From a virus: DNA of 64,000 bases. The notes below the pieces were generated by a model. It was not told where the DNA came from and made no database searches. It saw only the letters and a program-made list of their open reading frames with translations. Shown here one piece after another: positions 12,383 to 42,206 of the stretch. The position numbers and the translations under genes were made by a program. Numbering within the stretch: position 1 is the first letter of the stretch; each line of letters begins with the position of its first letter. Where the stretch lies: positions 1 through 64,000 of IMG/VR virus record IMGVR_UViG_3300035092_000015; one strand, given 5' to 3'.

Positions 12383-12561
12383 GCCGATCTCCTTCCGGTT
12401 GTGGAATCCGGGCTGACTCCCGGTGCGGGGGGTGGGTTCGGCGCGGCTCCTGCCGACGAGGTCAGCGCCGGCAGGGCACCCCTGCCGGGCGCCGCGCGCC
12501 CCACACCCCCCTGATCGGGGGTCAGAACCGGGGGCCACTGCCCCCTGCTCTGTCTGTTCCG

Positions 12562-18763: not shown

Positions 18764-18940
18764 TCAGACCGCCGATGAGAACCCGGACACGGCCTCGCGC
18801 GGGTGATCGACCTCGCGTTGTAGCCGGCGCAGCGTGGCCTCCAACGCTGGATTGCCGGCCAGTTCGGGCAGCTTCGCGAGGCGCGCGCCGTCCAGCCGGG
18901 CCACCGTGGTCGGGACGTCCGCCGGATCCGGGTTCGTCAC
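18764..18940 (-). CDS. FxSxx-COOH RiPP precursor-like peptide (58 aa)
   Basis: AAGGAG RBS then GTG. Sequence ...LAGNPALEATLRRLQREVDHPREAVSGFSSAV* has the FxsA-type leader and terminal F-x-S-x-x. Confidence 0.7.
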   Translation of the reverse strand: MTNPDPADVPTTVARLDGARLAKLPELAGNPALEATLRRLQREVDHPREAVSGFSSAV

Positions 18941-19629: not shown

Positions 19630-19737
19630 GGTGCCCCCTCCACTTCTCTCCGAGCCACTCCGCCAACGCTACCGCCGCTAGGCCCACCAACAAGATGATG
19701 ATGCCGCCCAGACCTTGTGGGTCGTCCCAGCCGCCGT

Positions 19738-20433: not shown

Positions 20434-20648
20434 CGGCCGGCCAGGAAACGTTCAACCGTGGCTGAGTTGCGGTCGGTGTACGTCTGCGCTGTCACCCGGG
20501 CGACCTTGCGCAGCCAGTGCGCCCCCGACGGTCCGACTGGCCGGCTGGTTTCGAGCGCGTTGGCGTATTCGATCAACGATTTGACCGACGGCGGTGCGGG
20601 TACCAGCTGGACGTCGACCCACCACAGCAGCCGGTTGAGCAGCTTCAT
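20430..20648 (-). CDS. Hypothetical protein
   Basis: TGATG/ATGA coupling. Confidence 0.45.
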   Translation of the reverse strand: MKLLNRLLWWVDVQLVPAPPSVKSLIEYANALETSRPVGPSGAHWLRKVARVTAQTYTDRNSATVERFLAGR

Positions 20649-21187
20649 CACTCGTACCCCCGGACCGGTGCGTGGGCGGCGATCGCCTGCAGGTTGACGT
20701 GTAGCCGCCAGTTCCACTCCGCATCCGCCAGTGCGTTGTGCCGGTCCTTCGCAGGCGGCAGGATCTGCTCCGGGTCGACCCCCAACCGGTGCGCCTCCTG
20801 CTGCAGGTCGTTGGTCCACATCGGGATCCCGTTCGGATGGTCGTTCATCGTCCCGTATAGCTGGCACAACACCACATGGTCGTAGGCGCCGTACCAGGCC
20901 CACAACTCGACCGGTTCGCCCGGCCCGGTCAGGAACTGGTGGACCTGCTCGGCGATGGTCTCCCGTTCGCGGAACACTGGGTTGTATTCATCCAGACGCC
21001 CGTCGGGGGTGTGTGGGAGGCTCGGGAGGACGTTCTCGACCAGCCACGGGTGTCTCCGGATCCGCCGCCACGGCGCGTCCAAGTCGACCGCGTAGTACAT
21101 ATCGCCTCGGTCGTTGACAATCCCGATCGAGATCAGATCGACCGTCCGGCCGTCCTCCAGGAACTCACAATCGTAGTAGAACCTCAC
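20648..21187 (-). CDS. DEDDh 3'-5' exoribonuclease (Rv2179c/RNase AS-like)
   Basis: FYYDCEFLEDG, LISIG, WAWYGAYDHV, HNALADA. Confidence 0.85.
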   Translation of the reverse strand: MRFYYDCEFLEDGRTVDLISIGIVNDRGDMYYAVDLDAPWRRIRRHPWLVENVLPSLPHTPDGRLDEYNPVFRERETIAEQVHQFLTGPGEPVELWAWYGAYDHVVLCQLYGTMNDHPNGIPMWTNDLQQEAHRLGVDPEQILPPAKDRHNALADAEWNWRLHVNLQAIAAHAPVRGYE

Positions 21188-22011
21188 CCCAACGCCTCAT
21201 TCCGGTAAGTCAGGACAGCCTCACGCATCAAGTCCAGATCGTACCGGGGCCGCCAACCGAGCAGATCCCACCCCTCGCCCGCCGCGTGGATCTCCGACTC
21301 GATCTCCCCCTGGCGCATCGGCAGGAAATCGAACCGTGGCATCTTCCACCCGGTTGCACTGGCCGCCACCCACGCGACCTGCTTCACCGTCATCGGCACC
21401 CCGGTCCCGCCGTCGAACACCCGATCCGCGTCGCAGTGCTCGACCGCATCCACCAACATCCGCGCGAGGTCGTCCACGTGGATCATGTCGACGGTCTGCT
21501 CGCCCGACCCCCAGACCGGCAGCGGTTCCTGGCGCCACGCCTTCACCGCGAACGTCGGCAGGATCTTCTGCGGGTGTCCCGGGCCGTGTTTCTGCCCCGG
21601 CCCGTACGCGTTGAACGCCCGCACATGCGCCACCTGCAGCCCCCGGTTGTGGTGCAGCGCGGTGGCGATCCGCTGGGCGGCGATCTTGGTCGCGGTGTAC
21701 AGCGACGGGAACACGTCCGGCATCAAGATCCCGACGTACCGGGCGCCGTTGCGGATACACCACTGCATCACGTTCAACGCCCCCAGGACGTTCACCTTGA
21801 CTGCTTCGTTGGGGGTGTCGAACAGTTCTGCTGTCCCGAGCACCCCGGCGAGGTGGATGACCGCGTTGGCCCCCTCAAGCCCGCCGAGGTGACCGAGGAC
21901 ATCCCCGCCGTGGGTCCGGTCGACTGACCAGGCTTGGTGGCCGGCTTTGCGGGCGGCGACCACGGTGGGTGCGCCGATGAACCCGGATCCGCCGGTGACT
22001 GCGATCTTCAT
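21184..22011 (-). CDS. NAD-dependent epimerase/dehydratase
   Basis: TGGSGFIG, VIHLAG, YTATK (YxxxK), FNAYGPGQ. Confidence 0.9.
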   Translation of the reverse strand: MKIAVTGGSGFIGAPTVVAARKAGHQAWSVDRTHGGDVLGHLGGLEGANAVIHLAGVLGTAELFDTPNEAVKVNVLGALNVMQWCIRNGARYVGILMPDVFPSLYTATKIAAQRIATALHHNRGLQVAHVRAFNAYGPGQKHGPGHPQKILPTFAVKAWRQEPLPVWGSGEQTVDMIHVDDLARMLVDAVEHCDADRVFDGGTGVPMTVKQVAWVAASATGWKMPRFDFLPMRQGEIESEIHAAGEGWDLLGWRPRYDLDLMREAVLTYRNEALG

Positions 22012-22670
22012 GCCCACTCCTCGGTGAGTTCGGCCAACGCCTGTTCGGGGGTGATAGCGGTGACCCGGTCCAGTACCGCAGGGGGGACGGTGGTCCAGTC
22101 CTGCCAAATCTCGACCAGCCGCCGGTCCGGTGCCCACTCCTGGGGGTGGGCTGGGAACCCTGACACTACCAGACACCCGGTGGGCCAGGTGTCGACCAGG
22201 CGCAGCCGCAGATCCGGTCGGTATTCGGCGAGCATCCGGCGGATCTTCCACACGTCGCCGGTCCAGTCCCCCAGGATGGGGGTGCCGACGGGGATCCGGC
22301 GGGCTTCTTCCTGGTTACGGGGCAGGACGTCGTCGAGCGCGACGATCGAGCGGGGGTGGCAGTACCGGGCGATGTTCTGGAAGTCCCGTACGACGTATTC
22401 GATCAGGTGCATCCCGTCGATGTACGCCAGGTCGATCTGCCACCCATCAGGTCGGGGGTCGGCGAAGAACTCATCGGAGGTCATGCTGTGGATCTTCTGG
22501 TTCGCGGTCTCCACGACCAGCGGCTGCGGGTCGATCCCGATCGCGACCTCGGCTGCGAACGCCAGGTTCAGGCTGTACCCGTGTTGAACCCCGACCTCCA
22601 GGTAGGTTTTCGGCCGGACCAGCCGGTGCAGCCCGGTCAGGAACCCACGGGTGTCGCTTAGATCGACCAT
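22008..22670 (-). CDS. Class I SAM-dependent methyltransferase (Methyltransf_24-like)
   Basis: YLEVGVQHG, DLAYIDGMH, ALDD, WTGDVWK. Confidence 0.85.
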   Translation of the reverse strand: MVDLSDTRGFLTGLHRLVRPKTYLEVGVQHGYSLNLAFAAEVAIGIDPQPLVVETANQKIHSMTSDEFFADPRPDGWQIDLAYIDGMHLIEYVVRDFQNIARYCHPRSIVALDDVLPRNQEEARRIPVGTPILGDWTGDVWKIRRMLAEYRPDLRLRLVDTWPTGCLVVSGFPAHPQEWAPDRRLVEIWQDWTTVPPAVLDRVTAITPEQALAELTEEWA

Positions 22671-29298: not shown

Positions 29299-29644
29299 CG
29301 TCGTCCCCGTCCAGTTCGGCTGCGATCTGCCCGTAGCGGCGTTGGTACACCTCGACCAGCGGTTCGGCCTTCTCCCGCTCCCACCAGCTGTTCAGATATA
29401 TCAAGGTCCGTTCAAACTCGGCCCGTTCGACGAAGATCGCGCTGTGCACGACCCGGCGCAGCGGGTAGGCCGGGTCGGGGCAGCTGCCGATGAAGATCCC
29501 GACCTTTCCGTCCTCCATGATGGCCGACCACATGATCTTCGTGTGGTTCTCCTCCGCCAGGTGGGCGAAAAGCTCGTACGCGACGGGGAACCCGTCGGGC
29601 TGCGCTTTACCGTCCCAACCGAACGGGGCAGGTTCACGAGCCAT
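29282..29644 (-). CDS. Hypothetical protein
   Basis: Coupled ORF. Confidence 0.5.
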   Translation of the reverse strand: MAREPAPFGWDGKAQPDGFPVAYELFAHLAEENHTKIMWSAIMEDGKVGIFIGSCPDPAYPLRRVVHSAIFVERAEFERTLIYLNSWWEREKAEPLVEVYQRRYGQIAAELDGDDGGSDR

Positions 29645-30866
29645 GACGCGACCCCAACCAGGGCAAGAACCCCTCAAGCTCGACGGCGGTCGCCCGAGCC
29701 AACTCGCCGGGCTGCCCGCGCCACTCGCCGTACAACTCCCGCAGCTTCGACATAGACCACTGCCGGGCGCCGGCCAACGTCGCGACCTGGTTCCACAGGG
29801 CCATACGGTCGGGGGATGGTGAACTCGACGGTGCGGGTGAGGAGGTCGACGAACTGGTTGATCCCGGTCCGGCAGTACCGGCAGGGGCAGCGGCGTTGCC
29901 CGACGGCGGCGGGTCGGCGAGCGATGCCCGGCGGGACTGCCACGCTTGCCGCAGCGCGTCCACCTGCTCCGGTTGGAGCTTGCCGATGTTGTCCTGGATG
30001 TGGCCGCTGACCTGCTTGAGCTTGTCCAGTGTGTCCGCCTGGGCGATCCCACGCCACAAGCTGTTGAAGTCCCATGTGTCCTCGGCGGGGGTTGCGGCGG
30101 CGGGCAGTGCGAGCGGTTGCGGGCCGGGCTCGAGCGCGGGGGCGGGGCGGGCCTCCAATGCCGGCGCGGCGGGTGCGCCGAGCAGCGCCACCGCCGGGGT
30201 CATGTCGATGTGCAGGACCGGGACCATGAACCGGGAGATCATCGTCTTATCTGGGTTGCGCGGATCCGGGACCTCCGCCTGCCGTTCCTCCATCTCCAGC
30301 CGGGCCGGGATGTGGCGGCCCAACGCAGTCAGCAGATCCACCGCGCCGGGCAGTTCGGCAGCCGCGTTGTACCCGTGCGACTCCAAACGCCACACACCCA
30401 TCCCAGGGGTGTCGGCGAGCATCAAGGACACCCGGGTGGTCGGTTTACAGCCGGCTTGTTTCTTGTCCGCCGGGTCCGGCCCGCAGACACACGGCTGGTC
30501 CTCCAAAAGCTCCCGCAGCCCGTCGCAACGACGGGAACACCGGCCGTTGGTCCACTGCTCGTAGTATTGGCTGCAGGCGTTCGGCGGGACGATGACCTGC
30601 AAGCTGGTCTTGTCGATCACCACCTGGTGCTGCAGGGCGCCGTGGTCGGGTTGCCACGGTTCAGGTTCTCCGCCGTACACCAACGCGACCTGTTGGATCA
30701 ACGTCTCGGACCGGGAGGTCAGCCGGAACCGGTCGAGTTTGACCGGCTCCTTGTATTCCTTGCCGGCGCGGCTGGTTTTCGGGCGGCTGGTGCCGAGCCG
30801 GATCCGGCCCACTTCGACCTGCCGCGCCTGCACGTCGGCCAGCCGGCGGGGGGTAGGAAGCGTCAT
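29634..30866 (-). CDS. Recombination directionality factor-like (Gp3-like) protein, probable ssDNA-annealing partner
   Basis: GRIRLG, KLDRFRLTS, RRCDG, CKPTTRVSLML, GVWRLESHGYNAAAEL. Lies near a PD-(D/E)XK nuclease. Confidence 0.7.
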   Translation of the reverse strand: MTLPTPRRLADVQARQVEVGRIRLGTSRPKTSRAGKEYKEPVKLDRFRLTSRSETLIQQVALVYGGEPEPWQPDHGALQHQVVIDKTSLQVIVPPNACSQYYEQWTNGRCSRRCDGLRELLEDQPCVCGPDPADKKQAGCKPTTRVSLMLADTPGMGVWRLESHGYNAAAELPGAVDLLTALGRHIPARLEMEERQAEVPDPRNPDKTMISRFMVPVLHIDMTPAVALLGAPAAPALEARPAPALEPGPQPLALPAAATPAEDTWDFNSLWRGIAQADTLDKLKQVSGHIQDNIGKLQPEQVDALRQAWQSRRASLADPPPSGNAAAPAGTAGPGSTSSSTSSPAPSSSPSPDRMALWNQVATLAGARQWSMSKLRELYGEWRGQPGELARATAVELEGFLPWLGSRHGS

Positions 30867-31254: not shown

Positions 31255-32631
31255 TCAGAACGGCAGCGGCTCGTCCAACAGAGCCAGCTGTGGCGGGCCG
31301 ATCTTGAACTTAGACGACATCGTGGCGGTGGTCACCGACCCGGCGGCTTTGATCAACTCCGCGTTGGCGGCGAGGTCAGCCGCGATCGCCGCTTGGACGC
31401 GGGCTTTCTGCGCCTGCGCGACCGGCGCCAGCGGCAGGTCGGGCAGCGGCGGTTCCTCCTCGGACAGCCAGGAATCGAGCGGATCCGGCCCGTTCGACAT
31501 GTTCTCGGTGCCGGCGAAATGCTCCTGCGCAGTCCGGTGGACCCCATGCGGGTCGCCCATCTCACACAGATAGCAGCCCGGCTCGAGAGCCAACTCGATT
31601 GCCTCTTGGACCGCCGCGAAGTCCACCCCAGCCGGGTCGTCCTCCGCGACATCCATCACGGCCAGCGCCGCGTCCGACACCTGCGCCCGGATGGGCATCT
31701 GATCCAACGGCGGATCGAACGGCTTCTTCCCGATCCCGGTGATCCACCGGTACGCCGTCAACACCCCCAGGAACGCGTCGAACGCACCATCGTCCGACAA
31801 CATCGCCTTGAACGTGTACGATTCCGGGCGCAGCTGCAACACCGCCCGCGCCCAGGTCGACGGCGCCTCGAACTCCTGCCCGTCCGACAACATCGCCACC
31901 TGGCACCGCTCGTACGCTACCGCCTGCAACGGCATGTCGTAGTACAGCCGCTCGTCCGGCTTCTCCCGGGTCTTGTAGTCCACCCGGATAAGCTCCGCGT
32001 CCCCACCGCCGACCCGGTCCAGGAACTCATCCGCCCACCGCGACGCGCCCCGCCGGACCCACACCGCCCCGTCCGACGTGCCGGCGTAGCCGTGCAGGCG
32101 GTTCAACAACGTCACCTCGGTCTGCTCCCACGAACCGGCCCCATCCGGGCCATTCGGGTGTAGACCGTAGTCGGTCACCCACTGGTGGAACTGGTCCATG
32201 TACGGGCGGACCTCCGGACGGATCGAGATCTGCGACCCACCCCCGAGAATCCACGCGTTGATCGCCTCGTGCACCTCCGTCCCCTCCTGCGATCGGCGGT
32301 TCGACTCCGCCTCATGCCGCCACGCGACGCGGCGCCACCAGCAACGTTCGCACCGGCCACACGGGCAACGTTCGCAGGTCTGGCCCCGGCCGTGTTTCAG
32401 GTAGCACTTGTTGAACGTGTTCCCGCACGCTGGGGTCATCTGCGCAGCCCAGATCGCCGGCAGGTTGTCCACCGCATAGTCCGCCGCGACCATTCCGGCC
32501 CAGATCTTCAACGCCGCCTTGTCCACCAGGTCCAGGATGGTGGTGACCGAGTCGAACCGTTCATTGGTCAACGGATGCACGTAGTACTTGCCACCGGCTG
32601 GGTTGGTCTGACGGTTGGCCGGTTCAGCCAC
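31255..32631 (-). CDS. PD-(D/E)XK exonuclease (RecE/Cas4-like) with Cys-rich insertion
   Basis: SVTTIL, GTEVH, YAGTSD, VDYKT, QAVAY. Confidence 0.8.
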   Translation of the reverse strand: MAEPANRQTNPAGGKYYVHPLTNERFDSVTTILDLVDKAALKIWAGMVAADYAVDNLPAIWAAQMTPACGNTFNKCYLKHGRGQTCERCPCGRCERCWWRRVAWRHEAESNRRSQEGTEVHEAINAWILGGGSQISIRPEVRPYMDQFHQWVTDYGLHPNGPDGAGSWEQTEVTLLNRLHGYAGTSDGAVWVRRGASRWADEFLDRVGGGDAELIRVDYKTREKPDERLYYDMPLQAVAYERCQVAMLSDGQEFEAPSTWARAVLQLRPESYTFKAMLSDDGAFDAFLGVLTAYRWITGIGKKPFDPPLDQMPIRAQVSDAALAVMDVAEDDPAGVDFAAVQEAIELALEPGCYLCEMGDPHGVHRTAQEHFAGTENMSNGPDPLDSWLSEEEPPLPDLPLAPVAQAQKARVQAAIAADLAANAELIKAAGSVTTATMSSKFKIGPPQLALLDEPLPF

Positions 32632-34115: not shown

Positions 34116-34342
34116 TCCAGGAGCTTAGCGCCGTCGAACGGACCGCGCTGCACATCGTGGTCGAAGGCGCCAAAACCGCCGTCGAGATGTTCCAGGAACA
34201 ACCAGCCAAAACCGCCGACGGGACCTTGGTCGACGACACCACCTGCCGTCAGATCGCGCTGCTCGCCGCGAACCTCACCCACGCCATCGCCTGCTACCCC
34301 CACGTCCTGCTCGAACTCGCCGCCCAGGAGGAACCGACATGA
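34112..34342 (+). CDS. Hypothetical protein
   Basis: Coupled, contains the AGGAGG RBS for purZ. Confidence 0.5.
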   Translation: MIQELSAVERTALHIVVEGAKTAVEMFQEQPAKTADGTLVDDTTCRQIALLAANLTHAIACYPHVLLELAAQEEPT

Positions 34343-35388
34343 CCCGAGGCACCATCCAAGTCATCGCAGGCGGACAGTACGGATCCGAAGCGAAAGGCGC
34401 CGTCGCCGGCTACCTGGCCGCCGAACAGGAACAGATGCTCGCGATCCGGGTCGCTGGCCCCAACGCCGGACATTCGGTGGTCGACCCGATCACCGGCGAG
34501 AAGTACGCCCTGCGGCAGATCCCCGCCGCCGCTGTTACCAACCCCGGCGCGTCGCTGTGCATCGCCGCCGGATCCGAGATCGACCCGTACGTGCTGCACG
34601 AAGAGATCGCCTGGCTCGAACGCGGCGGGATCCACGTCAAGGACCGGTTGTTGATCGACCCGGCCGCGACCTGGCTCACCCAGGACCACAAAGACCGCGA
34701 AATCACCGCCGGGATCGTCGGGCGGATCGGGTCCACCGGGAAAGGGATCGGCGCTGCCCGCGCCGCCCGGATCATGCGCGAAGCCCGCACCGTCGGACAG
34801 CACCGGTCCGAGTTCGAACAGTACGGACACATCGGGTCCGTTGCTACCGCCGCCCGGTCCGTACTGCGCGGCGGGGCCACGGTCCAGATCGAAGGGACAC
34901 AAGGGTACGGGTTGGGGCTGCACGGGGAACACTACCCGCAATGCACCTCCTCGGATTGCACCGCGTTGGATTTCCTGCAGATGGCCCGGGTCAACCCGTG
35001 GGAAGCCGACCAGCTGCAGGTGTGGCTGGTGTTCCGGCCCTACCCGATCCGGGTCGCCGGCAACTCCGGATATCTGTACGGCGAGACCAGCTGGGAGGCA
35101 CTCGGGCTGGCACCGGAGATGACCACCGTCACCAAGAATATCCGCCGGGTCGGGCAGTGGGACGGCGGGCTGGCGTACGCCGCGATGCAAGCCAACGGTG
35201 GGTCGCGTGTCGTGTGGCCGGTGCTGACCATGGCCGACCAGATCGACCCTGCCCTGGCCGGGGTGACCGACTCTGACACGGTGCTCGGGTCGGATCTGCT
35301 CGGGCAGTTCCTGAAGATCTTCGAAGCCGACGTCGGGCTCGAACCGTGCATGATCACCACCTCCGACCGCACCTGCGTGAGGCTGTGA
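34339..35388 (+). CDS. purZ: PurA paralogue, PurZ0-type 2-amino-deoxyadenylosuccinate synthetase
   Basis: GGQYGSEAKG (Ser replaces the PurA catalytic Asp of GDEGKG), GPNAGH, GSTGKGIG, EGTQG, YPQCTS, PIRVAGNSG, TTVTK..RRV, and LTMAD (GTP-type TxxD). Confidence 0.85.
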   Translation: MTRGTIQVIAGGQYGSEAKGAVAGYLAAEQEQMLAIRVAGPNAGHSVVDPITGEKYALRQIPAAAVTNPGASLCIAAGSEIDPYVLHEEIAWLERGGIHVKDRLLIDPAATWLTQDHKDREITAGIVGRIGSTGKGIGAARAARIMREARTVGQHRSEFEQYGHIGSVATAARSVLRGGATVQIEGTQGYGLGLHGEHYPQCTSSDCTALDFLQMARVNPWEADQLQVWLVFRPYPIRVAGNSGYLYGETSWEALGLAPEMTTVTKNIRRVGQWDGGLAYAAMQANGGSRVVWPVLTMADQIDPALAGVTDSDTVLGSDLLGQFLKIFEADVGLEPCMITTSDRTCVRL

Positions 35389-35963
35389 TGGCCAAGAAGA
35401 AGCTCCCCCTGCAGGTCGCCTGCTCGACTTGCCACCGGCAGTACAAACCCCGACCCAACAACACCCTGCCCCGCCACAAAGACGGACTGCGGTGGTGCCC
35501 CGGCAGCTACCAGCCGCCCGCCGCACCCGACGACAACGCCACACCCGGCGGCAGTGGGTTTGCTTGGCTGCCCACCCCCGAACCGATCCTGATCGAAGTG
35601 CCCCGAGTCGGGGCGAAAGCACAACCACTGGCCGATTGGTGGGCCGCCCGCGCCCTGGCCGAGATCGAGATGGTCGTGGCGAAAGCCGTCGAATACGGCG
35701 CCACCGACCTGCGCGACCTGGGCTACCAGATGCTGGACATGGCCGGGCGGCGCGAGCAGTTCATGGACCCGGAGGACCTGCACTACAGCGACGCCTACGC
35801 CACCGAGGTCGGGATCGTCTTCTACGCCCAAGGGAAACTCGCCCGCGCCGTGGCCGCGATCAAAGAAGGCCGACGGCCCTCAGTCGATACCTGGCTGGAC
35901 CTCGGGGTGTACGCCCGGATGGCCCAACGGGTCCACGACCGAGGCGGCTGGCCCGGTGTCTAG
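35388..35963 (+). CDS. Zn-ribbon plus Nmad1/DUF1599-like (MazG-fold) nucleotide pyrophosphohydrolase candidate
   Basis: K..EYG..DL ... KLAR ... DTWLDLGVY pattern, TGATG-coupled to purZ. Confidence 0.6.
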   Translation: MAKKKLPLQVACSTCHRQYKPRPNNTLPRHKDGLRWCPGSYQPPAAPDDNATPGGSGFAWLPTPEPILIEVPRVGAKAQPLADWWAARALAEIEMVVAKAVEYGATDLRDLGYQMLDMAGRREQFMDPEDLHYSDAYATEVGIVFYAQGKLARAVAAIKEGRRPSVDTWLDLGVYARMAQRVHDRGGWPGV

Positions 35964-36041
35964 CCGGCACTGGTTCGACCCGATCCCCGCCTGCATCTAC
36001 TGGGTGTGGTTCATCCTGACTTACTGCACTGGCAGCTGACC

Positions 36042-36287
36042 ATGCCCACCCGGATATCCACCGCAGACGAACACTACTGGGAGCAGCAAGCCCGACACCT
36101 GGTCGCCTGCGACACCTGCCCCGCCCCGATCGACCAACCATGCCACTACCCGACCAGCGGAGTCGAAGCGTCAGTGTGCTGCCACACCAGCCGGATGGTC
36201 AAAGCCGTCAACCACCCCGACTGGGCCGGAAGGAAACCCAAATGGCTACCGACGAAACAATGCGCGACTGGCTCGCCCCCCAGATGA
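36042..36287 (+). CDS. Small Zn-finger protein
   Basis: CDTCPA...PC...CHTSR. Confidence 0.5.
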   Translation: MPTRISTADEHYWEQQARHLVACDTCPAPIDQPCHYPTSGVEASVCCHTSRMVKAVNHPDWAGRKPKWLPTKQCATGSPPR

Positions 36288-36532
36288 GACGCGCCGACTG
36301 CCCCGAACCCGACTGCAACATGTGGGCCGGACATCAAGGGCTACACTCCATCGCCCCCCGGGCTAGGCACACCATCCCCGGCTGGGCAGTGACCCTGTTC
36401 GCACTCACCGCCGGGCTGGCCATGCTAGCCGCCGCCGCCCGGATCCATCTGGAAACCGCCCTGCTCGCCGGCTGCGGGACGCTGCTGGTCGGCACCGCCA
36501 TCGCCGCGATCAACGAGATGAGGAGACACTGA
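36242..36532 (+). CDS. Small membrane protein
   Basis: GAAGGA RBS, two TM segments. Confidence 0.5.
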   Translation: MATDETMRDWLAPQMRRADCPEPDCNMWAGHQGLHSIAPRARHTIPGWAVTLFALTAGLAMLAAAARIHLETALLAGCGTLLVGTAIAAINEMRRH

Positions 36533-37485
36533 TGGGCACACCCTGGGGCGACCAACCCCCACTCGTCTACTTCGCCGAACCGATCGACAAAGCCCACGGG
36601 CAGAACTTCGCCATCGCCGCCACCATGCACGGCGCACTCACCACCTGGGGCTGCACCACCTACCGCCCCAGCGCAGCCTGGAAAGCCACCCACCTGGACT
36701 GGCGGGTCGACCACCTCAACCGGCAAGCGCTACGCCTGGCCGACCTGATCGTCGCCTACCTCGACGAACACACCCCATCGATCGGAGTCCCCGCCGAGAT
36801 CGAAGCCGCCACCGCCCAGAAAATCCCCGCCATCGTGCACTACACCGGCACCTCGTTCGTCCTGGCCGGCAACCCCCTGGTCACCGTCATCACCAAAACC
36901 GAAGACCTGGTCGCAGCGGTGATGCGAGCATTGAAAGACCACCCCCGGCCCGACCGGGCCGCCGACCACCAACTGGCCCGGACCCTCGCATCGGGTGGTT
37001 CGGTCAGCCTCGGCACCATCACCCCCGCACAGGCCACCGCCCTGGTCGCCAAGATCAACGGCCCCGAACCGATCCGGCTGGTCGTCACCGAAGGCGCCGC
37101 CCCACCCCAGCGGGTCTACCAAGACGACGCCGGAATCGACCTCACCACCGCCGCCGAGATCGTCATCAACCCCGGACAGTACGTCGACGTCCCCACCCAG
37201 GTCGAAGCCACCCAACTCCCCTCCGGATACTGGGGGTTGATCACCGGCCGCTCGAGTGCGCTGCGGAAATGGCGCCTGCACATCCCCATCGCCGTGATCG
37301 ACCCCGGCTGGCGCGGCCCGCTGTTCGTCGGGGTGTGGAACCTCGGCGGGAACCCCGTCACCGTCAAAGCCGGCGACCGGCTCGGCCAGCTGATCCTCAT
37401 CCCCAACCACACCGCCCCGATCGAAGTCGTCGCGGCGGTTGAAGACCACCCCCGGGGTTTGAAAGGATTCGGCTCGAGCGGATGA
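36532..37485 (+). CDS. Fusion of nucleoside 2-deoxyribosyltransferase/N-glycosidase-like domain and trimeric dUTPase-like domain
   Basis: N-term VYFAEPID...ADLIVA...SIGVPAEIEAA. C-term DAGIDL, GRSS, VIDPGWRG, GDRLGQ, RGLKGFGSSG. Confidence 0.8.
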   Translation: MGTPWGDQPPLVYFAEPIDKAHGQNFAIAATMHGALTTWGCTTYRPSAAWKATHLDWRVDHLNRQALRLADLIVAYLDEHTPSIGVPAEIEAATAQKIPAIVHYTGTSFVLAGNPLVTVITKTEDLVAAVMRALKDHPRPDRAADHQLARTLASGGSVSLGTITPAQATALVAKINGPEPIRLVVTEGAAPPQRVYQDDAGIDLTTAAEIVINPGQYVDVPTQVEATQLPSGYWGLITGRSSALRKWRLHIPIAVIDPGWRGPLFVGVWNLGGNPVTVKAGDRLGQLILIPNHTAPIEVVAAVEDHPRGLKGFGSSG

Positions 37486-37925
37486 AACCCAGCCACCAAT
37501 GCCGGGTCTGCGGACGGTGGCTCGAAGGCGAGTGGAACCGGACCACCGACCCAGACCTGCAGGCCGCCCTGCAACGGCAGATGAACCAAGGCCACTGCGA
37601 CGGGTGCACACCCGACCTCGAACGGCCCCACCAATGGCGACCCACCCGGCTCGGCGTCACCCGGATCCTGCAAACCGAACGGCTGGCCATCCACCGGATC
37701 AACTACCTGTGGTGGTGCGCCTGGTGCGGCACACAGACCAGACAACCCGACTACCCCGGCGGGACCTGCAACCAACACCGCCTGGCCGAACTGACCGGCC
37801 GGACCTACACCGTCGACACCAAACCGACCCTCCCAGGAAGGCCACCCAACCGGACATGGCACTCGACTACCAATGCGTGTACTGCCGCCCCCAACCCCAC
37901 GCACGATTCCACAACGGGACATTGA
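37482..37925 (+). CDS. Cys-rich hypothetical protein
   Basis: Multiple CxxC, ATGA coupling. Confidence 0.45.
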   Translation: MKPSHQCRVCGRWLEGEWNRTTDPDLQAALQRQMNQGHCDGCTPDLERPHQWRPTRLGVTRILQTERLAIHRINYLWWCAWCGTQTRQPDYPGGTCNQHRLAELTGRTYTVDTKPTLPGRPPNRTWHSTTNACTAAPNPTHDSTTGH

Positions 37926-38146
37926 TCGAGATCGCCCTACACCACACCGGACGGCGCTGCCACGGCGACATCACCCGGCTCACACCCACCGAATGGGACA
38001 GTTACGCCCCCGCACACGTGGACACCGAGCTGCGCCAGAAATGGGTCCGAGGGTGGCAGGCAACCCAATCACCCGACGCGAAACCACCCAAACCCGACCG
38101 GGTACGCCCCGCCGGGACCGTCCGCCGGCCCACCCCCCGCCGGTAG
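37856..38146 (+). CDS. Hypothetical protein
   Basis: CVYC...H...C pattern. Confidence 0.4.
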   Translation: MALDYQCVYCRPQPHARFHNGTLIEIALHHTGRRCHGDITRLTPTEWDSYAPAHVDTELRQKWVRGWQATQSPDAKPPKPDRVRPAGTVRRPTPRR

Positions 38147-38326
38147 GGTGTTGTCCCGCCAGAACCAGCGGTACGATAGACGATCCGCGTCCGGGGACAG
38201 GAGCGGGGGGCTGCGCCGCCACGCGCAACCCCCCACCTGCTGACACCGGAACCCGCAAGACCACCCGGATCAATCCTAGCACAACCGGCCCCCGACGGCC
38301 GCCAACCACAACAAGAGGGGGGACGA

Positions 38327-40474
38327 GTGGAACGTACCCCGCTGCAGGTCGTGCTCGACGCCATCACCACCCGCACCGGGACCGGGCAGCTGCAGAACGG
38401 GCAATGGCGACTGCACTGCCCCGCCCACCCAGACCGAAACTCCAGCCTCGGACTGGCCGAAACCCCAGCCGGACATGCGCTGCTGTACTGCCAAGCCGGC
38501 TGCCGCACCGAAGACGTCCTCGCATCCGTCGACCTGCAGATGCGCGACCTGTACCCCATCACCAACGGCGACCGGCGCGAAGACCCCATCGTCGCCACCT
38601 ACCCATACGTGGACGAAACCGGGCAGCTGCTGTACCAAGTGCTGCGGACCGCCAACAAACGGTTCATGCAACGCCGCCCCGACCCCACCCAACCCACCAA
38701 ATGGATCTACAAACTCGACGACACCCGCCGGGTCCTGTACCGCCTCCCAGCCGTGCTGCAAGCCATCCGCGAAGGCCAAACCATCTACCTCGTGGAAGGC
38801 GAGAAAGACGTCCACACCGTCGAACAAGACGGCTGCGTCGGGACGTGTAACCCCGGCGGAGCCGGGAAATGGCGACCCGAATACACCGACCAGCTACGCG
38901 GCGCCCACCTCGTGATCGTCGCCGACATCGACCCCACCGGGGTCGGGATGCGCCACGCCCGAACCCTACACCAACAGCTACAACCAGTAGCAGCCAGCCT
39001 GCTGCTGTGCCAACCCGCCGCCGGGAAAGACACCACCGACCACCGGCTCGCCGGGTTCGCCCTGGACGAGCTGACCATCGTCGACCCCAACCCCCCAACC
39101 CCCACCCCGCAGGCCGTCCCGCTGCCCCCGGAGGCCATCGACGGGCCGCCCGAGCCGGTATCACCCGCAACCACCGACATGGGGAGAGCGAGGATCCGGT
39201 TGACCCCCGCATCGGCGTTCACCATCAAACCCGTCCGGTGGGTCTGGGACGGACGGATGCCACTCGGCGAGATCTGCCTCATCGCCGGACGCGAAGGCGT
39301 CGGCAAATCCACCTTCCTGGCCTGGCTCACCGCCGCCATCACAAACGGTAACCTCCCCGGGGTGTACGAAGGCGAACCCCGGGCCGTCCTGTACAGCGCC
39401 TCCGAAGACGCCTGGAGTTACACCATCGCCCCCCGGATGGTCGCCGCCGGAGCCAACCTCGACCTGGTCTACCGGATCGACACACTCGACGACGACGGCA
39501 CCCCAGGGAAGCTGATCCTCCCACGCGACAGCCGATACCTGCCCGAGATCGCCGAAGAAACCAAAGCCGCCGCACTCATGTGCGACCCCATCCTCAGCCT
39601 CGTCGACGGAAGGATCAACCCCAACCAAGCCCAAGAACTGCGCTCCGCACTCGAACCGTTGAAACACGCCGCCGAAACCGCCGGGATCGTCGTCCCCGCA
39701 CTCGTGCACTTCAACAAAACCCGCGACGTGGACATCCTGTCGATGATCGCCGGGTCGAGATCGTGGTCCGAAGTCGCCCGCGCCGCCCTGGCGATCGCCG
39801 AGGACAAAGAAGCCGAAGAATACACCTGTGTCGTCTCCCAGGGCAAGAACAACCTCGGCCGTAAAAACCTCCCCAACCTGCTGTACACCATCGACGACGT
39901 AGCGTTGGAGACCGAGGACGGACCACCTGCCAGGGTCGGCCGGCTGCGGTGGACCGGCGAGACCGAACTGGAGGCGGAAGAGGTGCTGCAACGCAAACCG
40001 ACCAGCCAAGCCAACCGGGAGAACATGAACCGGACCCAGGCGGCGATCTTGGACTGGCTGGACGAACAGGGCCGCGCCTGCAGCCCCCGCGAGGTTGCCG
40101 ATGGGCTGCCGGACGTCCTGAACTATGAGAACGCGAAGAAAACCCTCGCCCGGCTGGCGTCACGCGGCGTAATCCAACGGGTAGGGACAGGCTTGTATCG
40201 CACCGAACCTGCTGTCCCTGCCGCTGGAGCCGGGTCAACGCCCATGCGTACGCGCGACCCCCTCGGAAAACAGTCCCCGTCCCCCGCCCAAGTCAAGGGG
40301 GGTGGAGGGACTGGAAGTAAGGGTATACTTGTCCCCGCAGGGACTGGAGGAGGGACTGGGACGCAGGGGGCGGGCAAGTTGTCCCCCGAGGTGGTAAGGA
40401 GTTGCACGGTCTGCTACGGACCGTTAACGATCACCGAGCCCGGCCAGACCACCCACCCCACCTGCGAGCCCTAG
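38327..40474 (+). CDS. DNA primase (Zn-binding + TOPRIM) / AAA_25 helicase fusion
   Basis: CPAHPD...YCQAGC, LVEGEKD, IVADID, Walker A GREGVGKS, C-terminal wHTH. Confidence 0.9.
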   Translation: MERTPLQVVLDAITTRTGTGQLQNGQWRLHCPAHPDRNSSLGLAETPAGHALLYCQAGCRTEDVLASVDLQMRDLYPITNGDRREDPIVATYPYVDETGQLLYQVLRTANKRFMQRRPDPTQPTKWIYKLDDTRRVLYRLPAVLQAIREGQTIYLVEGEKDVHTVEQDGCVGTCNPGGAGKWRPEYTDQLRGAHLVIVADIDPTGVGMRHARTLHQQLQPVAASLLLCQPAAGKDTTDHRLAGFALDELTIVDPNPPTPTPQAVPLPPEAIDGPPEPVSPATTDMGRARIRLTPASAFTIKPVRWVWDGRMPLGEICLIAGREGVGKSTFLAWLTAAITNGNLPGVYEGEPRAVLYSASEDAWSYTIAPRMVAAGANLDLVYRIDTLDDDGTPGKLILPRDSRYLPEIAEETKAAALMCDPILSLVDGRINPNQAQELRSALEPLKHAAETAGIVVPALVHFNKTRDVDILSMIAGSRSWSEVARAALAIAEDKEAEEYTCVVSQGKNNLGRKNLPNLLYTIDDVALETEDGPPARVGRLRWTGETELEAEEVLQRKPTSQANRENMNRTQAAILDWLDEQGRACSPREVADGLPDVLNYENAKKTLARLASRGVIQRVGTGLYRTEPAVPAAGAGSTPMRTRDPLGKQSPSPAQVKGGGGTGSKGILVPAGTGGGTGTQGAGKLSPEVVRSCTVCYGPLTITEPGQTTHPTCEP
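40184..40385. repeat. Cluster of ten GGGAC/GTCCC pentamers (iteron-like), candidate replication origin
   Basis: Copies at 40184, 40214, 40273, 40279, 40307, 40331, 40340, 40352, 40358 and 40381 in both orientations, in the low-complexity 3' tail of the primase gene. Confidence 0.5.
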
Positions 40475-40503
40475 CCGTCGGGACCGCGTGATAGAGTGCA
40501 GGG

Positions 40504-40767
40504 ATGGCAACCCAGATCCAACCGGGACAACCCGGTGACCTGCCCGACCACCCACGCCCCATCAGCAGCACCACCTACCCCTGGGACCAATGGGCCGACG
40601 GACACACCTGGCTGCTCACCCGAGACACCGACTACACCGACACCACCCACAAAGTCACCGAAGCCGCCAAGAAACACGCCCAACGCCACGGCTACCACCT
40701 GCGCTACGCCACCACCCCCAACAGCATCCGCCTACGATTCATCCCGAAGGAACCCGCCACACCATGA
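40504..40767 (+). CDS. Hypothetical protein
   Basis: YPWDQWADG motif, ATGA coupling to purB. Confidence 0.6.
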   Translation: MATQIQPGQPGDLPDHPRPISSTTYPWDQWADGHTWLLTRDTDYTDTTHKVTEAAKKHAQRHGYHLRYATTPNSIRLRFIPKEPATP

Positions 40768-42206
40768 GCCGACGTACACCCACCCCAGACATCGACCGCA
40801 TCTGGACCACCACCTGGACCACACACCTGTGGCACCAACAATGGCTCGCCCATTTATACACCCAAACCCGAGCCAACCCCAACCACCCAGGACACGACCA
40901 CCTCGACCACTACCACCAAGCCGCCCAGCAATACGCCGACAACCCCACCCCGTGGTTGATCGAACAAGGGCACCAAGAACAGATCACCCGACACGACCTC
41001 CAAGCCGCCCTCGACATCTACAACCAGCACGCCGGACACGACACCGCCCACCTCGGACTCACCAGCCACGACATCACCGACCCCACCACCCAGATCCAGA
41101 TCCGAGACAGCGCCAACCACATCCTGCGGCAGATCACCGAACTCGCCCACCTGCTCGGACAGCAAGCCCAAACCTGGCGCCTGCAACCGCTGCTCGCCCG
41201 CACCCACGGCCAACCCGCCCAGACCACAAGCTACGGACACCGGATCGCCGCCACCATCACCCCGCTGCTGGCGGCCGGGGCCCGGCTCGAGGCCGCGATC
41301 CAGAACTACGACTTCCGCCCCCCGCACGGTGCGGTCGGCACCTCTGCTGACCTGAACCGCGTCCTGCACGGGTGGGCCGGGCACGGGAACGGCCCGACGA
41401 CGGCCTCGGAGGGGTCTCCGAGCGCCTCGGAGCCCCCAGCGGGTATTTCGGGCCCCCCAGGAGCTTCGGAGGCCGCCGGAAAGGCTTCCGAAGCCGTCGA
41501 CCTGTACGGCGTTTTGATCGCCAAAGCGGCCGGGTTCCAGTTCGTGATGCCCACCACCCGTCAGATCTACCACCGGTCCTACGACCTGCCGATCGCCTCG
41601 GCGATGGTGGAGATCGCGGCGGTCGCGCAGACCTGGGCCACCGACCGGCGGCTGGAGGCGATGCTCGGGTTGGGCAACGAGGCCCGCGACCCGGGGCAGG
41701 TCGGTTCGTCTGCGATGGCGCATAAGACCAACCCGGTCCTGTGCGAACGGATCTGCAGCCTGACGTCGGTTACTCGGAGTCACTACACCGGGTTGGCGGA
41801 GATCGCCGGGCAGGGGTGGCTCGAGGGGGATGTGTCGACCTCTGCAGCCCGGCGGTTGTTGCTGCCGCAACTGTTCTCGAATGTCTCGGCGATCTTGATC
41901 AACTGGCGCGACGCCGCCCTGCGGTGGGAGCCGGATTGTAAGCAGCTGTCCCGTGAGTTGGAGTTACACAACCAGGAGGTGTCGACGGGGGCGTTGCTGC
42001 ACTACCTGGTCGAGTCGGGGGTGCCACGGTCGGAGGCCCACCGGCGGCTGCGTGGGGGGGTGTTGGGGCTGCTGGCCGATGCGGATGGCGAGGAGCATGA
42101 TCGGTTACTGGCTGTGATGGTGGATGCGTCTCGGATCCCGGTGCAGGCGTTGGTCGAGGTCGATGTGATTGTGGCGGCGACGGCATCGCTCGGCCCGTCC
42201 AGTTGA
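40764..42206 (+). CDS. purB: Adenylosuccinate lyase (fumarase/ASL superfamily)
   Basis: TRHD, HLGLTSHDITD, ARTHGQPAQ, GAVGT, and signature GSSAMAHKTNP..CE. Confidence 0.85.
   Translation: MSRRTPTPDIDRIWTTTWTTHLWHQQWLAHLYTQTRANPNHPGHDHLDHYHQAAQQYADNPTPWLIEQGHQEQITRHDLQAALDIYNQHAGHDTAHLGLTSHDITDPTTQIQIRDSANHILRQITELAHLLGQQAQTWRLQPLLARTHGQPAQTTSYGHRIAATITPLLAAGARLEAAIQNYDFRPPHGAVGTSADLNRVLHGWAGHGNGPTTASEGSPSASEPPAGISGPPGASEAAGKASEAVDLYGVLIAKAAGFQFVMPTTRQIYHRSYDLPIASAMVEIAAVAQTWATDRRLEAMLGLGNEARDPGQVGSSAMAHKTNPVLCERICSLTSVTRSHYTGLAEIAGQGWLEGDVSTSAARRLLLPQLFSNVSAILINWRDAALRWEPDCKQLSRELELHNQEVSTGALLHYLVESGVPRSEAHRRLRGGVLGLLADADGEEHDRLLAVMVDASRIPVQALVEVDVIVAATASLGPSS

What the first reader, a model, noticed from the sequence alone, without database searches (positions are those of the whole stretch)
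34339..42206. Z-base (2-aminoadenine) pathway that includes a phage-encoded PurB
Seen: a PurA paralogue with GSEAKG and TMAD motifs, and on the same strand 5.4 kb downstream an adenylosuccinate lyase with intact-looking catalytic motifs. Known: PurZ/PurZ0 converts dGMP + Asp to a succinylated intermediate, and characterised Z phages rely on host PurB to release dZMP. Inference: this phage carries both committed steps, and its divergent PurB (SSAMAHK rather than SSxMPxK) may be specialised for the 2-amino-deoxy substrate.
Basis: partly seen in the sequence, partly recalled or inferred. Interest (0 to 1): 0.82.

Follow-up and report, generated by a model that had tools for sequence, protein, structure and literature searches.

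The report
PurZ0 Z-DNA genes with own lyase
An uncultured 81-kb phage of high-GC bacteria carries the known PurZ0-type gene set for making the DNA base 2-aminoadenine (Z) together with its own adenylosuccinate lyase; this pairing is already annotated in cultured phages, but the lyase here comes from a separate evolutionary source.

Summary
On the + strand of a complete 80,875-bp virus record lie a PurZ0-type synthetase (34339-35388), a DmtZ-DutZ fusion (36532-37485), a primase-helicase (38327-40474) and a PurB-like lyase. The lyase's real start is 40764, so it has 480 aa. The synthetase passes NCBI's curated PurZ model and carries Ser where PurA has Asp.

"PurB-like adenylosuccinate lyase" is already annotated in cultured PurZ0 phages: Streptomyces phages Hiyaa, Keanu, Spocter and Galactica, and Gordonia phages Ghobes, Sapo, Frizzle and Archimedes. 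Of 22 PurZ0 virus records at least 90% complete, 12 carry a lyase. The scan has also reported this pairing on other DNA.

Three things are new here:
- **Separate origin.** This lyase sits in a second viral clade beside actinobacterial long-type ADSL. An AU test rejects one clade with the Hiyaa/Ghobes lyases (p 0.0004), which points to two recruitments.
- **No polymerase.** All four near-complete genomes with this lyase type lack a family A polymerase (DpoZ).
- **SSAMAHK.** This is a sub-clade trait, not a family hallmark, though Pro-to-Ala recurs in both phage clades.

Specialisation for the 2-amino-deoxy substrate is plausible but untested. Verdict: a new variant of a known kind, of moderate interest.

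The parts
34339..35388 (+). PurZ0-type succino-amino-deoxyadenylate synthetase (349 aa). GSEAKG has Ser at the PurA catalytic-Asp position; TMAD lies at 297-300.
   Evidence: NCBIfam NF038379 PurZ scores 316.9 bits against a cut-off of 300, and all purA equivalogs fall below their cut-offs. PDB matches: 7VF6 (PurZ0 of Gordonia phage Archimedes) 291.7 bits, P. horikoshii PurA 160.3, phiVC8 PurZ 121.5, S-2L PurZ 96.2. phrog_1211.
35388..35963 (+). Conserved partner ORF of unknown function (191 aa from the ATG that overlaps the PurZ0 stop). It has a Cys-rich N-terminal part and a four-helix C-terminal domain.
   Evidence: A homologue lies directly downstream of purZ0 in 74 of 80 IMG/VR PurZ0 loci. 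No Pfam, PHROG, NCBIfam or PDB sequence match. No relation to Wayne DUF5664 (hhalign probability 0.13%). AF2 model has helices 81-102, 105-118, 135-159 and 166-185. ESM Atlas gives a lead to DUF1599/Nmad1 clusters (TM 0.70), but PF07659 finds nothing.
36006..36287 (+). Small phage zinc-finger protein (93 aa)
   Evidence: Pfam PF24623 Phage_zn_bind_8, E 1.5e-05, 25.1 bits against a cut-off of 24
36532..37485 (+). DmtZ-DutZ fusion (317 aa): an N-terminal NDT-like domain and a C-terminal dUTPase-fold domain
   Evidence: Pfam dUTPase E 5.1e-23; Nuc_deoxyrib_tr weak at 17.7 bits, below the cut-off of 28.8. Aligns end to end (12-317 against 5-305) with the characterised Wayne DmtZ-DutZ ALY10777.1 at 32% identity, E 1e-34. 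Its function is described in PMC12884076 (passages read).
38327..40474 (+). Primase-helicase (715 aa): Toprim-type primase region plus an AAA_25 RepA-like helicase
   Evidence: Pfam AAA_25 E 6e-22; PHROGs 10729, 239, 6088 and 47; about 28% identity to Microbacterium phage primase/helicases
40504..40767 (+). Small ORF (87 aa) whose stop overlaps the PurB start as ATGA
   Evidence: no family match
40764..42206 (+). PurB-like adenylosuccinate lyase (480 aa) of a viral clade that branches beside Actinomycetota long-type ADSL
   Evidence: Pfam Lyase_1. TIGR00928 purB is the best NCBIfam hit at 209 bits, below its cut-off of 326.2. PDB 4NLE 149.7 bits. AF2 model pLDDT 88.8. Foldseek top hit is M. 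tuberculosis PurB 9OO0, TM 0.79/0.81. H77, S101, D103, H148, S315, S316, K321, N323 and E328 are invariant in the clade and shared with cellular ADSL. Trees.
41379..41462 (+). Low-complexity Ser/Ala/Pro/Gly insert within PurB (residues 206-233), predicted disordered
   Evidence: pLDDT below 50 for residues 206-233. The stretch is absent from the Streptomyces PurB in the pairwise view and unaligned to 4NLE.

Best explanation
This is a PurZ0-type 2-aminoadenine (Z) DNA module of an uncultured actinophage. The proposed chain is as follows.
1. The DutZ domain turns dGTP and dATP into dGMP and dAMP, and the DmtZ domain destroys dAMP. This follows from homology to the characterised Wayne enzyme.
2. 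[quoted passage not shown] This is inferred from family membership.
3. The phage's own PurB-like lyase removes fumarate to give dZMP. This step is inferred and not shown for any phage lyase.
4. Host kinases make dZTP, and a host polymerase incorporates it, because the genome has no recognisable polymerase.

The lyase makes the phage independent of the level or specificity of host PurB. It was recruited separately from the lyase of Hiyaa- and Ghobes-type phages.
For: **PurZ identity.**
- NF038379 scores above its cut-off.
- Ser stands at the Asp position, as in 88 of 88 strong PurZ0-like hits with a readable motif. By contrast 13 of 13 cellular and 9 of 9 other viral PurA neighbours with a readable motif have Asp.
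- The closest solved structure is PurZ0 7VF6.

**Companion enzymes.** A DmtZ/DutZ homologue lies within 10 kb in 77 of 80 PurZ0 loci. The window's fusion aligns over its full length with the assayed Wayne enzyme.

**Lyase integrity.**
- The ADSL fold is complete, TM about 0.8.
- The catalytic His, Ser-Ser, Lys, Asn and Glu positions are kept.

**Linkage of lyase and PurZ0.**
- In the phage collection the PurB-like tblastn hits include all 11 Streptomyces and Gordonia records. These match, in organism count, the PurZ hits from those two genera.
- Lyase_1 is present in 26 of 50 PurZ0 virus records searched whole, and in 12 of 22 that are at least 90% complete.
- On the window's side of the tree PurZ0 is found in the window, L007, L009, L012 and the record of L015.

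**Two recruitments.** The window clade has SH-aLRT 97 and the Hiyaa/Ghobes clade 100. The AU test rejects joining them (p 0.0004, delta lnL 154.9).
Against: - No chemistry exists for this phage or for any phage PurB-like protein in the papers I could search.
- Host PurB is stated to suffice for PurZ phages (passages in PMC12884076 and the bioRxiv preprint 2025.10.22.683976), so the phage lyase may be dispensable. Ten of 22 near-complete PurZ0 records lack one, as do the Wayne-type Arthrobacter phages.
- The lyase scores below NCBI's purB equivalog cut-off (209 against 326.2).
- It has lost several residues that are invariant in its cellular sister clade: Tyr of the N-terminal Arg-Tyr pair, K80, R82, R102, K159 and K188 equivalents. 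Activity on any substrate is therefore not assured.
- Six records on the window's side of the tree show no PurZ0. All are fragments: four are rated 30-52% complete, and two are contigs of 7.2 and 8.5 kb.
- The AU groups were named after a first tree had been seen.
Confidence: 0.72

Rival explanations
1. The lyase is a general purine-flux auxiliary gene. It works as an ordinary bifunctional ADSL (SAICAR and adenylosuccinate) that raises de novo purine supply during infection. That supply feeds the dGMP used by PurZ0, and host PurB or both enzymes handle dSMP.
For: ADSL enzymes are bifunctional (established knowledge). Ordinary PurA (Asp motif) next to PurB occurs on 9 other viral contigs, so phages do carry plain purine genes. 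The catalytic residues are those of normal ADSL.
Against: Both phage lyase clades are tied to PurZ0 genomes rather than to phages in general. The clade has lost residues that are invariant in its cellular sisters, which would not be expected if both normal substrates still had to be served. No other purine-synthesis gene was seen among the genes scanned in the window.
Confidence: 0.13
2. The pair is an ordinary AMP-supplying PurA plus PurB module, and the phage DNA holds normal adenine.
For: Both proteins belong to the PurA and PurB superfamilies. The synthetase also resembles archaeal PurA (160.3 bits to P. horikoshii PurA).
Against: Ser replaces the catalytic Asp. The NCBIfam PurZ model is passed while every purA equivalog model fails. 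A DmtZ-DutZ enzyme, whose characterised homologue destroys dATP and dAMP, lies 1.1 kb downstream. That would work against an AMP/dATP supply role.
Confidence: 0.05
3. The lyase-like protein has drifted to another reaction of the fumarase/aspartase superfamily, or is inactive, and plays no part in Z synthesis.
For: It scores below the purB equivalog cut-off. It carries a 28-residue disordered insert, Pro-to-Ala in the signature loop, and loss of several residues conserved in cellular ADSL.
Against: purB is by far the best family: 209 bits against 74.7 for pcaB and 19.7 for argH. Forty-six columns are invariant across 34 clade members at 37-94% identity to the window's protein, including the catalytic set, which shows purifying selection. 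The best structural matches are all ADSL.
Confidence: 0.07

Closest known systems
PurZ0 Z-cluster of Gordonia phages Archimedes and Ghobes (PurZ0 structure 7VF6; DutZ and DmtZ characterised in PMC12884076)
   Same: PurZ0-type synthetase with Ser for Asp. A homologue of the small conserved ORF lies directly downstream (Archimedes gp51). DutZ and DmtZ activities are encoded nearby. A PurB-like lyase is annotated in the same genome.
   Different: The Gordonia lyase is a short form (365-377 aa as annotated) in another clade, with only 29% identity over 211 aa to the window's. It lies on the opposite strand next to DNA polymerase I. Those phages are about 45 kb and encode a family A polymerase; the window's genome does not. 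DmtZ and DutZ are separate genes there and fused here.
Hiyaavirus Streptomyces phages (Hiyaa, Keanu, Spocter, Galactica)
   Same: Genomes of 81-83 kb from high-GC actinobacterial hosts. PurZ0 is 47-48% identical. The gene order is the same: PurZ0, conserved ORF, NDT-dUTPase fusion, then a PurB-like lyase about 5 kb downstream on the same strand.
   Different: Their lyase belongs to the short-type clade, with 28% identity to the window's. Hiyaa has a family A polymerase. The window's terminase is closest to other Streptomyces phages (Zuko, Dryad and others, about 45%). No nucleotide-level match to any phage record was found.
Arthrobacter phage Wayne (Korravirus) PurZ0 cluster
   Same: PurZ0 is 44.9% identical. 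The DmtZ-DutZ fusion is homologous over its full length.
   Different: In Wayne a DUF5664 pyrophosphohydrolase occupies the slot after PurZ0, where the window has an unrelated ORF. The two Wayne-type records searched have no lyase (G051, G055). DNA polymerase I is annotated beside the cluster.
PurZ clusters of Vibrio phage phiVC8 and cyanophage S-2L (PurZ, DatZ, MazZ)
   Same: The same committed reaction family (PurZ), with the same expected product.
   Different: Similarity is much lower (121.5 and 96.2 bits). According to the passages read, those phages use DatZ and MazZ rather than DutZ and DmtZ, and rely on host PurB.
Cellular adenylosuccinate lyase of Actinomycetota (M. tuberculosis PurB 9OO0, M. 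smegmatis 4NLE)
   Same: Same fold over the full length (TM 0.79-0.81), same catalytic residues, and the nearest cellular branch in the tree.
   Different: Only 26-31% identical. A disordered insert is present, and many positions invariant in the cellular clade are changed. No relative closer than 31% was found among the kept hits from the representative genomes of 185,579 species.

Membership tests
PurZ (succino-amino-deoxyadenylate synthase, NCBIfam NF038379) | Score above the curated model cut-off | tested here: met
   316.9 bits against a cut-off of 300. The purA equivalogs score 200.4/368, 125.5/395.55 and 100.1/402, all below cut-off.
PurZ (succino-amino-deoxyadenylate synthase, NCBIfam NF038379) | Ser in place of the catalytic Asp of PurA in the P-loop (GDEGKG in PurA). 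PMC12884076 states this for 147 of 147 phage sequences (passage read). | tested here: met
   The window has GSEAKG. All 88 strong PurZ0-like hits with a readable motif have Ser; cellular neighbours have Asp in 13 of 13.
PurZ (succino-amino-deoxyadenylate synthase, NCBIfam NF038379) | dGMP rather than IMP as substrate | not testable with these tools
   Needs an enzyme assay.
PurZ0 subgroup | Closer to PurZ0 (7VF6) and archaeal PurA than to ATP-type PurZ | tested here: met
   291.7 bits to 7VF6, 160.3 to P. horikoshii PurA, 121.5 to phiVC8 PurZ and 96.2 to S-2L PurZ. No tree of the synthetases was built here.
PurZ0 subgroup | GTP as phosphate donor | not testable with these tools
   The TMAD motif aligns with TMLD of P. 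horikoshii PurA and SMAD of 7VF6. That this Asp reads guanine is recalled, not tested. The Tong et al. 2023 paper is not held.
PurZ0 subgroup | Co-occurrence with dutZ/dmtZ (98 of 98 and 85 of 98 genomes in PMC12884076, passage read) | tested here: met
   A DmtZ-DutZ fusion lies at 36532-37485. 77 of 80 IMG/VR PurZ0 loci have a homologue.
Adenylosuccinate lyase PurB (TIGR00928 / Pfam Lyase_1 + ADSL_C) | Score above the purB equivalog cut-off | tested here: not met
   209 bits against a cut-off of 326.2. It is therefore a PurB-like lyase, not a certified equivalog.
Adenylosuccinate lyase PurB (TIGR00928 / Pfam Lyase_1 + ADSL_C) | Lyase_1 domain and the three conserved regions, with the catalytic His and the signature-loop Ser | tested here: met
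   PF00206 E 6.5e-18. The motifs TRHD, HLGLTSHD, RTHGQPAQ and GSSAMAHKTNPVLCE are present. H77, S101, D103, H148, S315, S316, K321, N323 and E328 are conserved at 90% or more in both the viral clade and cellular ADSL. The assignment of catalytic roles is recalled.
Adenylosuccinate lyase PurB (TIGR00928 / Pfam Lyase_1 + ADSL_C) | Full ADSL fold including the C-terminal domain | tested here: met
   Foldseek aligns 493 columns to 9OO0 at TM 0.79/0.81. Pfam ADSL_C (PF10397) is not detected by sequence in the window protein, and in the precomputed Pfam column it appears on only 3 of the 34 A1 clade members (P0041, P0044, P0045).
Adenylosuccinate lyase PurB (TIGR00928 / Pfam Lyase_1 + ADSL_C) | Cleavage of adenylosuccinate, SAICAR or dSMP | not testable with these tools
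   Needs an enzyme assay.
DmtZ-DutZ fusion (PMC12884076) | NDT-like N-terminal domain fused to a dUTPase-fold C-terminal domain, homologous to Wayne ALY10777.1 | tested here: met
   32% identity over residues 12-317 against 5-305, E 1e-34. dUTPase is above cut-off; NDT scores 17.7, below 28.8.
DpoZ (Z-selective family A DNA polymerase) | A DNA_pol_A gene in the genome | tested here: not met
   No PF00476 match in the complete 80,875-bp record. PolB, DnaE-type and Prim-Pol also give no match.
DUF5664 / dGTP_diPhyd_N pyrophosphohydrolase | A PF18909 domain in the genome | tested here: not met
   No match at E <= 1. The ORF in the equivalent slot is unrelated by hhalign.

The most novel reading that the evidence does not exclude
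PurZ0 phages have twice, independently, captured an adenylosuccinate lyase from two deeply separated ADSL subfamilies. In each case they remodelled it into a dedicated dSMP lyase that no longer serves SAICAR or adenylosuccinate. The traces would be the loss of the Arg-Tyr Tyr and several invariant basic residues, and the recurrent Pro-to-Ala change in the signature loop. In the window's lineage this lyase, together with PurZ0 and DmtZ-DutZ, would be enough to impose a Z genome on the host's own replicase, with no Z-selective polymerase at all.
Probability: 0.3. Interest if true: 0.62.

Novelty: new variant of a known kind. Interest (0 to 1): 0.46.

Why it matters
The second step of Z-nucleotide synthesis is described as a host function in the passages I could read. 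If phage lyases are dedicated dSMP lyases, the pathway in the PurZ0 branch would be more self-contained than described. A compact enzyme set (DutZ/DmtZ, PurZ0, lyase) would then be available for making Z-DNA in heterologous hosts.

Two independent recruitments would be evidence from evolution that host PurB limits Z synthesis in actinobacterial hosts. The lack of any polymerase in this lineage bears on whether a Z-selective polymerase is needed, or whether control of the nucleotide pool alone is enough.

Tried and rejected
- **Nucleotide search.** The 7.9-kb region found no phage record.
- **Single-protein locus search.** PurZ0 alone found only one close relative, so I repeated the search with an alignment.
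- **Genomic context of the 34 metagenomic clade members.** Linkage to PurZ0 inside the window's clade therefore rests on IMG/VR records only. PurZ0 is present in the window, L007, L009, L012 and the record of L015. It was not seen in L008, L010, L021 and L027 (30-52% complete), nor in L011 and L013 (contigs of 8.5 and 7.2 kb).
- **The conserved 191-aa ORF.** I looked for a MazG, DUF5664 or DUF1599 relation.
  - There was no Pfam hit at E <= 1 shared by more than one of the 22 members and no PDB sequence hit.
  - hhalign to Wayne DUF5664 gave probability 0.13%, and PF07659 found nothing at E <= 10.
  - Foldseek found nothing at E <= 0.001. VIA-align gave only generic helical hairpins, Z at most 6.7.
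  - Only the ESM Atlas gave a lead, to DUF1599-bearing clusters.
- **SSAMAHK as a family hallmark.** Rejected.
- **Promoter and terminator scan of 33.3-43.2 kb.** It gave no more than chance.
- **Literature.**
  - Searches for PurZ0; for PurZ, PurB and phage-encoded; for adenylosuccinate lyase, 2-aminoadenine and phage; and for PurB, diaminopurine and phage found no paper that discusses a phage-encoded PurB in Z phages.
  - PMC12884076 holds neither 'lyase' nor 'PurB'.
  - Tong et al. 2023 (Nature Microbiology, recalled) is not held. The 2021 Science papers were not read, so either may mention it.
- **Not done.** I built no tree of the synthetases and made no analysis of ligand-contact residues for the 2'-OH or the 2-amino group. 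The functional roles of ADSL residues are recalled, not tested.

Full report
**What the window is.** It is bases 1-64000 of an IMG/VR virus record of 80,875 bp with direct terminal repeats, rated 100% complete. G+C is about 67% throughout. The record starts inside a tape-measure gene, followed by tail and endolysin genes. A leftward block follows, with glycosyltransferases, an epimerase, a Gp3-like protein and a Cas4-type exonuclease. Then come a rightward early block that holds the finding, and terminase and portal genes at 51.9-55.6 kb. The terminase is about 45% identical to those of Streptomyces phages such as Zuko and Dryad. No phage record matches at the nucleotide level. This is therefore a free phage genome of a new lineage, most likely infecting an actinobacterium; the host is inferred from composition and relatives only.

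**Check of the observation.** The synthetase (34339-35388, 349 aa) and the lyase are both there.
- The lyase ORF as listed (40590-42206) begins with 58 residues of His/Pro/Arg-rich read-through. The credible start is the ATG at 40764, in an ATGA overlap with the upstream 87-aa gene and with GAAGGA 11 nt upstream. This gives 480 aa, starting 5,376 bp after the synthetase stop.
- GSEAKG (residues 15-20) and TMAD (297-300) are present. Their key positions are invariant in 11 of 11 aligned PurZ0-type sequences.
- SSAMAHK is at residues 315-321 of the lyase.

**The synthetase is a PurZ of the PurZ0 branch.**
- It passes NCBI's curated PurZ model (316.9 bits, cut-off 300) and fails every purA equivalog model.
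- The best solved relative is 7VF6 (291.7 bits), which PMC12884076 names as PurZ0 of Gordonia phage Archimedes (passage read).
- The other scores are 160.3 bits for archaeal PurA, 121.5 for phiVC8 PurZ and 96.2 for S-2L PurZ.
- Ser stands where PurA has its catalytic Asp. Across the loci fetched, all 88 strong PurZ0-like hits with a readable motif have Ser. Cellular PurA next to PurB has Asp in 13 of 13 cases, and so do 9 of 9 other viral PurA neighbours with a readable motif.

**The surroundings fit the published PurZ0 gene set.**
- The 317-aa protein at 36532-37485 has a dUTPase domain and a weak NDT-like N-terminus. It aligns end to end with the DmtZ-DutZ fusion of Arthrobacter phage Wayne (32% identity, E 1e-34).
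- Directly after PurZ0 lies a 191-aa ORF. A homologue occupies the same slot in 74 of 80 IMG/VR PurZ0 loci, and a DmtZ/DutZ homologue lies nearby in 77 of 80.
- Wayne has a DUF5664 pyrophosphohydrolase in that slot. The window's ORF is unrelated to it, and the genome has no DUF5664.

**The lyase is an intact-looking but divergent ADSL.**
- Pfam Lyase_1 is matched. purB is much the best NCBIfam model, but at 209 bits it is below the equivalog cut-off of 326.2.
- The AlphaFold model is confident (pLDDT 88.8, pTM 0.87) except for residues 206-233, a Ser/Ala/Pro-rich insert. Its best structural matches are M. tuberculosis and M. smegmatis PurB and eukaryotic ADSLs, at TM 0.76-0.81 over the full length.
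- In an alignment of 34 clade members at 37-94% identity to the window's protein, 46 columns are invariant. They include the His of TRHD, the TS.D motif, the His of RTHG, both Ser of the signature loop, and the Lys, Asn and Glu that follow. The same positions are conserved in the cellular sister clade.
- On the other side, many positions invariant in 35 cellular sequences are changed or free in the viral clade. Among them are the Tyr of the N-terminal Arg-Tyr pair and several basic residues. Whether these touch the substrate is recalled knowledge at best and was not tested.

**Is a phage-encoded PurB new? No.**
- tblastn against 50,697 phage records shows an annotated "PurB-like adenylosuccinate lyase" or "adenylosuccinate lyase" in Streptomyces phages Galactica, Keanu, Spocter and Hiyaa, and in Gordonia phages Ghobes, Sapo, Frizzle and Archimedes. 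By organism count (5 Streptomyces and 6 Gordonia records in each search) these match the PurZ hits from the two genera.
- Galactica has the same order as the window: PurZ0, an unnamed ORF, an NDT-dUTPase fusion, and the lyase about 4.7 kb downstream.
- Among 80 IMG/VR PurZ0 loci, 28 have a PurB-like gene within the fetched flanks. I gave 50 of those 80 records, mainly the longer loci picked by eye, to a whole-record search. Twenty-six hold a Lyase_1 gene, and 12 of the 22 rated at least 90% complete do. The Wayne-type records do not.
- The searchable literature does not discuss these genes. PMC12884076 says the dSMP-to-dZMP step is done by host enzymes and contains neither 'lyase' nor 'PurB'.
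- Earlier reports of this scan reached the same view on other genomes.

**What is different here.**
- The window's lyase is only 28% identical to Galactica gp75 and 29% over 211 aa to Ghobes gp36.
- A protein search found 46 metagenomic relatives at 37-94% identity (P0001-P0046). Below them identity drops to cellular ADSL at about 30%.
- The closest cellular genes among the representative genomes of 185,579 species are Actinomycetota PurB at 26-31% identity. No closer prophage copy was among the kept hits.
- In a FastTree of 190 sequences the first split separates long-type from short-type ADSL. The window's clade lies beside the Actinomycetota/Verrucomicrobiota long-type enzymes. The Hiyaa, Ghobes and Archimedes lyases form a PurZ0-rich clade inside the short type.
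- An IQ-TREE of 87 chosen rows recovers both clades: 21 rows each, SH-aLRT 97 and 100. An AU test rejects uniting them (delta lnL 154.9, p 0.0004). The caveats are that the groups were named after the first tree, and that the model was LG+G4 without a mixture.
- PurZ0 phages therefore acquired a lyase at least twice, from different ADSL subfamilies. On the window's side PurZ0 is seen wherever the record is long enough: the window, L007, L009, L012 and the 80.6-kb record of L015. In that last record PurZ0 lies across the permuted ends.

**The SSAMAHK point.** The clade consensus is SSAMPHK.
- Ala at that position occurs in 17 of 51 rows on the window's side (all of the window's own sub-clade) and in 7 of 28 rows of the Hiyaa/Ghobes-side clade.
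- It occurs in only 5 of 111 other rows.
- The rows are related sequences filtered at 80% identity, so these are not independent events. Recurrence in both phage clades is a mild hint of a relaxed or retuned signature loop, no more.

**Polymerase.**
- The complete genome has no match to family A, family B, DnaE-type or Prim-Pol polymerase models. Its only replication enzyme in view is a primase-helicase.
- Family A polymerase is also absent from the three other records at least 90% complete that carry this lyase type (G003, G006, G009). It is present in Hiyaa and Archimedes.
- PMC12884076 reports that DpoZ-1 tracks PurZ0 (passage read). This lineage is an exception, and it presumably relies on pool control plus the host replicase (inference).

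**Mechanism and odds.** The most likely reading (0.72) is the PurZ0 pathway with the phage lyase doing the dSMP-to-dZMP step. The gene identities rest on models and structures. The reaction of the lyase is inferred. Rivals:
- A general purine-flux ADSL (0.13).
- A plain PurA/PurB module (0.05). This is contradicted by the Ser motif, the PurZ model score and the dATP-destroying partner.
- A drifted or inactive lyase (0.07).

**Verdict.** The finding is real and coherent, but it belongs to a known kind. The pairing is already annotated in cultured phages and is common in metagenomes. Its own contribution is a second, independently captured lyase lineage in a polymerase-less PurZ0 architecture. 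I rate it a new variant of a known kind, interest 0.46.

Noticed in passing
window 35388-35963 (+); homologues e.g. L106:11134-11448, L119:12019-12369: An uncharacterised 100-residue four-helix domain (consensus WW...KA.EYG..DL..G...ELG..FY..GK.AR...GR.PS.DTW.D..VY..MA) follows purZ0 directly in 74 of 80 IMG/VR loci. It includes Archimedes gp51 and the Hiyaa record. It takes the slot that DUF5664 has in Wayne but is unrelated to it. The only lead is an ESM Atlas structural likeness to DUF1599/Nmad1 clusters (TM 0.70).
   Followed up: partly
whole genome G000 (window 1-64000 plus 64001-80875); records of L085, L088, L245: The complete genome has no family A, family B, DnaE-type or Prim-Pol polymerase. 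The three other near-complete PurZ0 records with the same lyase type also lack family A polymerase, whereas Hiyaa and Archimedes have one.
   Followed up: partly
loci L025, L034, L044, L046, L047, L049, L057, L065, L079: Other viral contigs carry an ordinary PurA (GDEGKG, Asp) 1-2 kb upstream of a short-type PurB. These are plain purine auxiliary pairs and form a useful contrast to the PurZ0 pairs.
   Followed up: partly
PurB-like proteins of L054/L095, L075, L099 and P0064, P0068, P0071, P0089; window residues 315-321: Pro-to-Ala in the ADSL signature loop (SS.MA.K) recurs in both PurZ0-linked lyase clades (24 of 79 rows) and is rare elsewhere (5 of 111 rows).
   Followed up: partly
window 18937-22251 (-): A leftward block encodes a family 2 glycosyltransferase, a TOD1/MUCI70-like glycosyltransferase-like protein and an NAD-dependent sugar epimerase/dehydratase. 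The target is unknown; it could be the virion, the host envelope or DNA.
   Followed up: no
window 29634-30866 (-) and 31255-32631 (-): A 410-aa protein with a Gp3-like domain (PF18897, E 2.8e-39) lies next to a 458-aa PD-(D/E)XK/Cas4-type exonuclease (phrog_298). They are probably a recombination pair.
   Followed up: no
window 11549-12538 (-): A 329-aa ORF has a weak SAVED-domain hit below the cut-off (E 6.9e-4, 19.8 bits against 26.2). It may be chance.
   Followed up: no
L075 (IMGVR_UViG_3300003320_000823): The open frame around the PurB-like hit, taken from the first start codon, reads 799 aa, far longer than the others. It could be a fusion or an over-extended frame from my ORF routine.
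   Followed up: no
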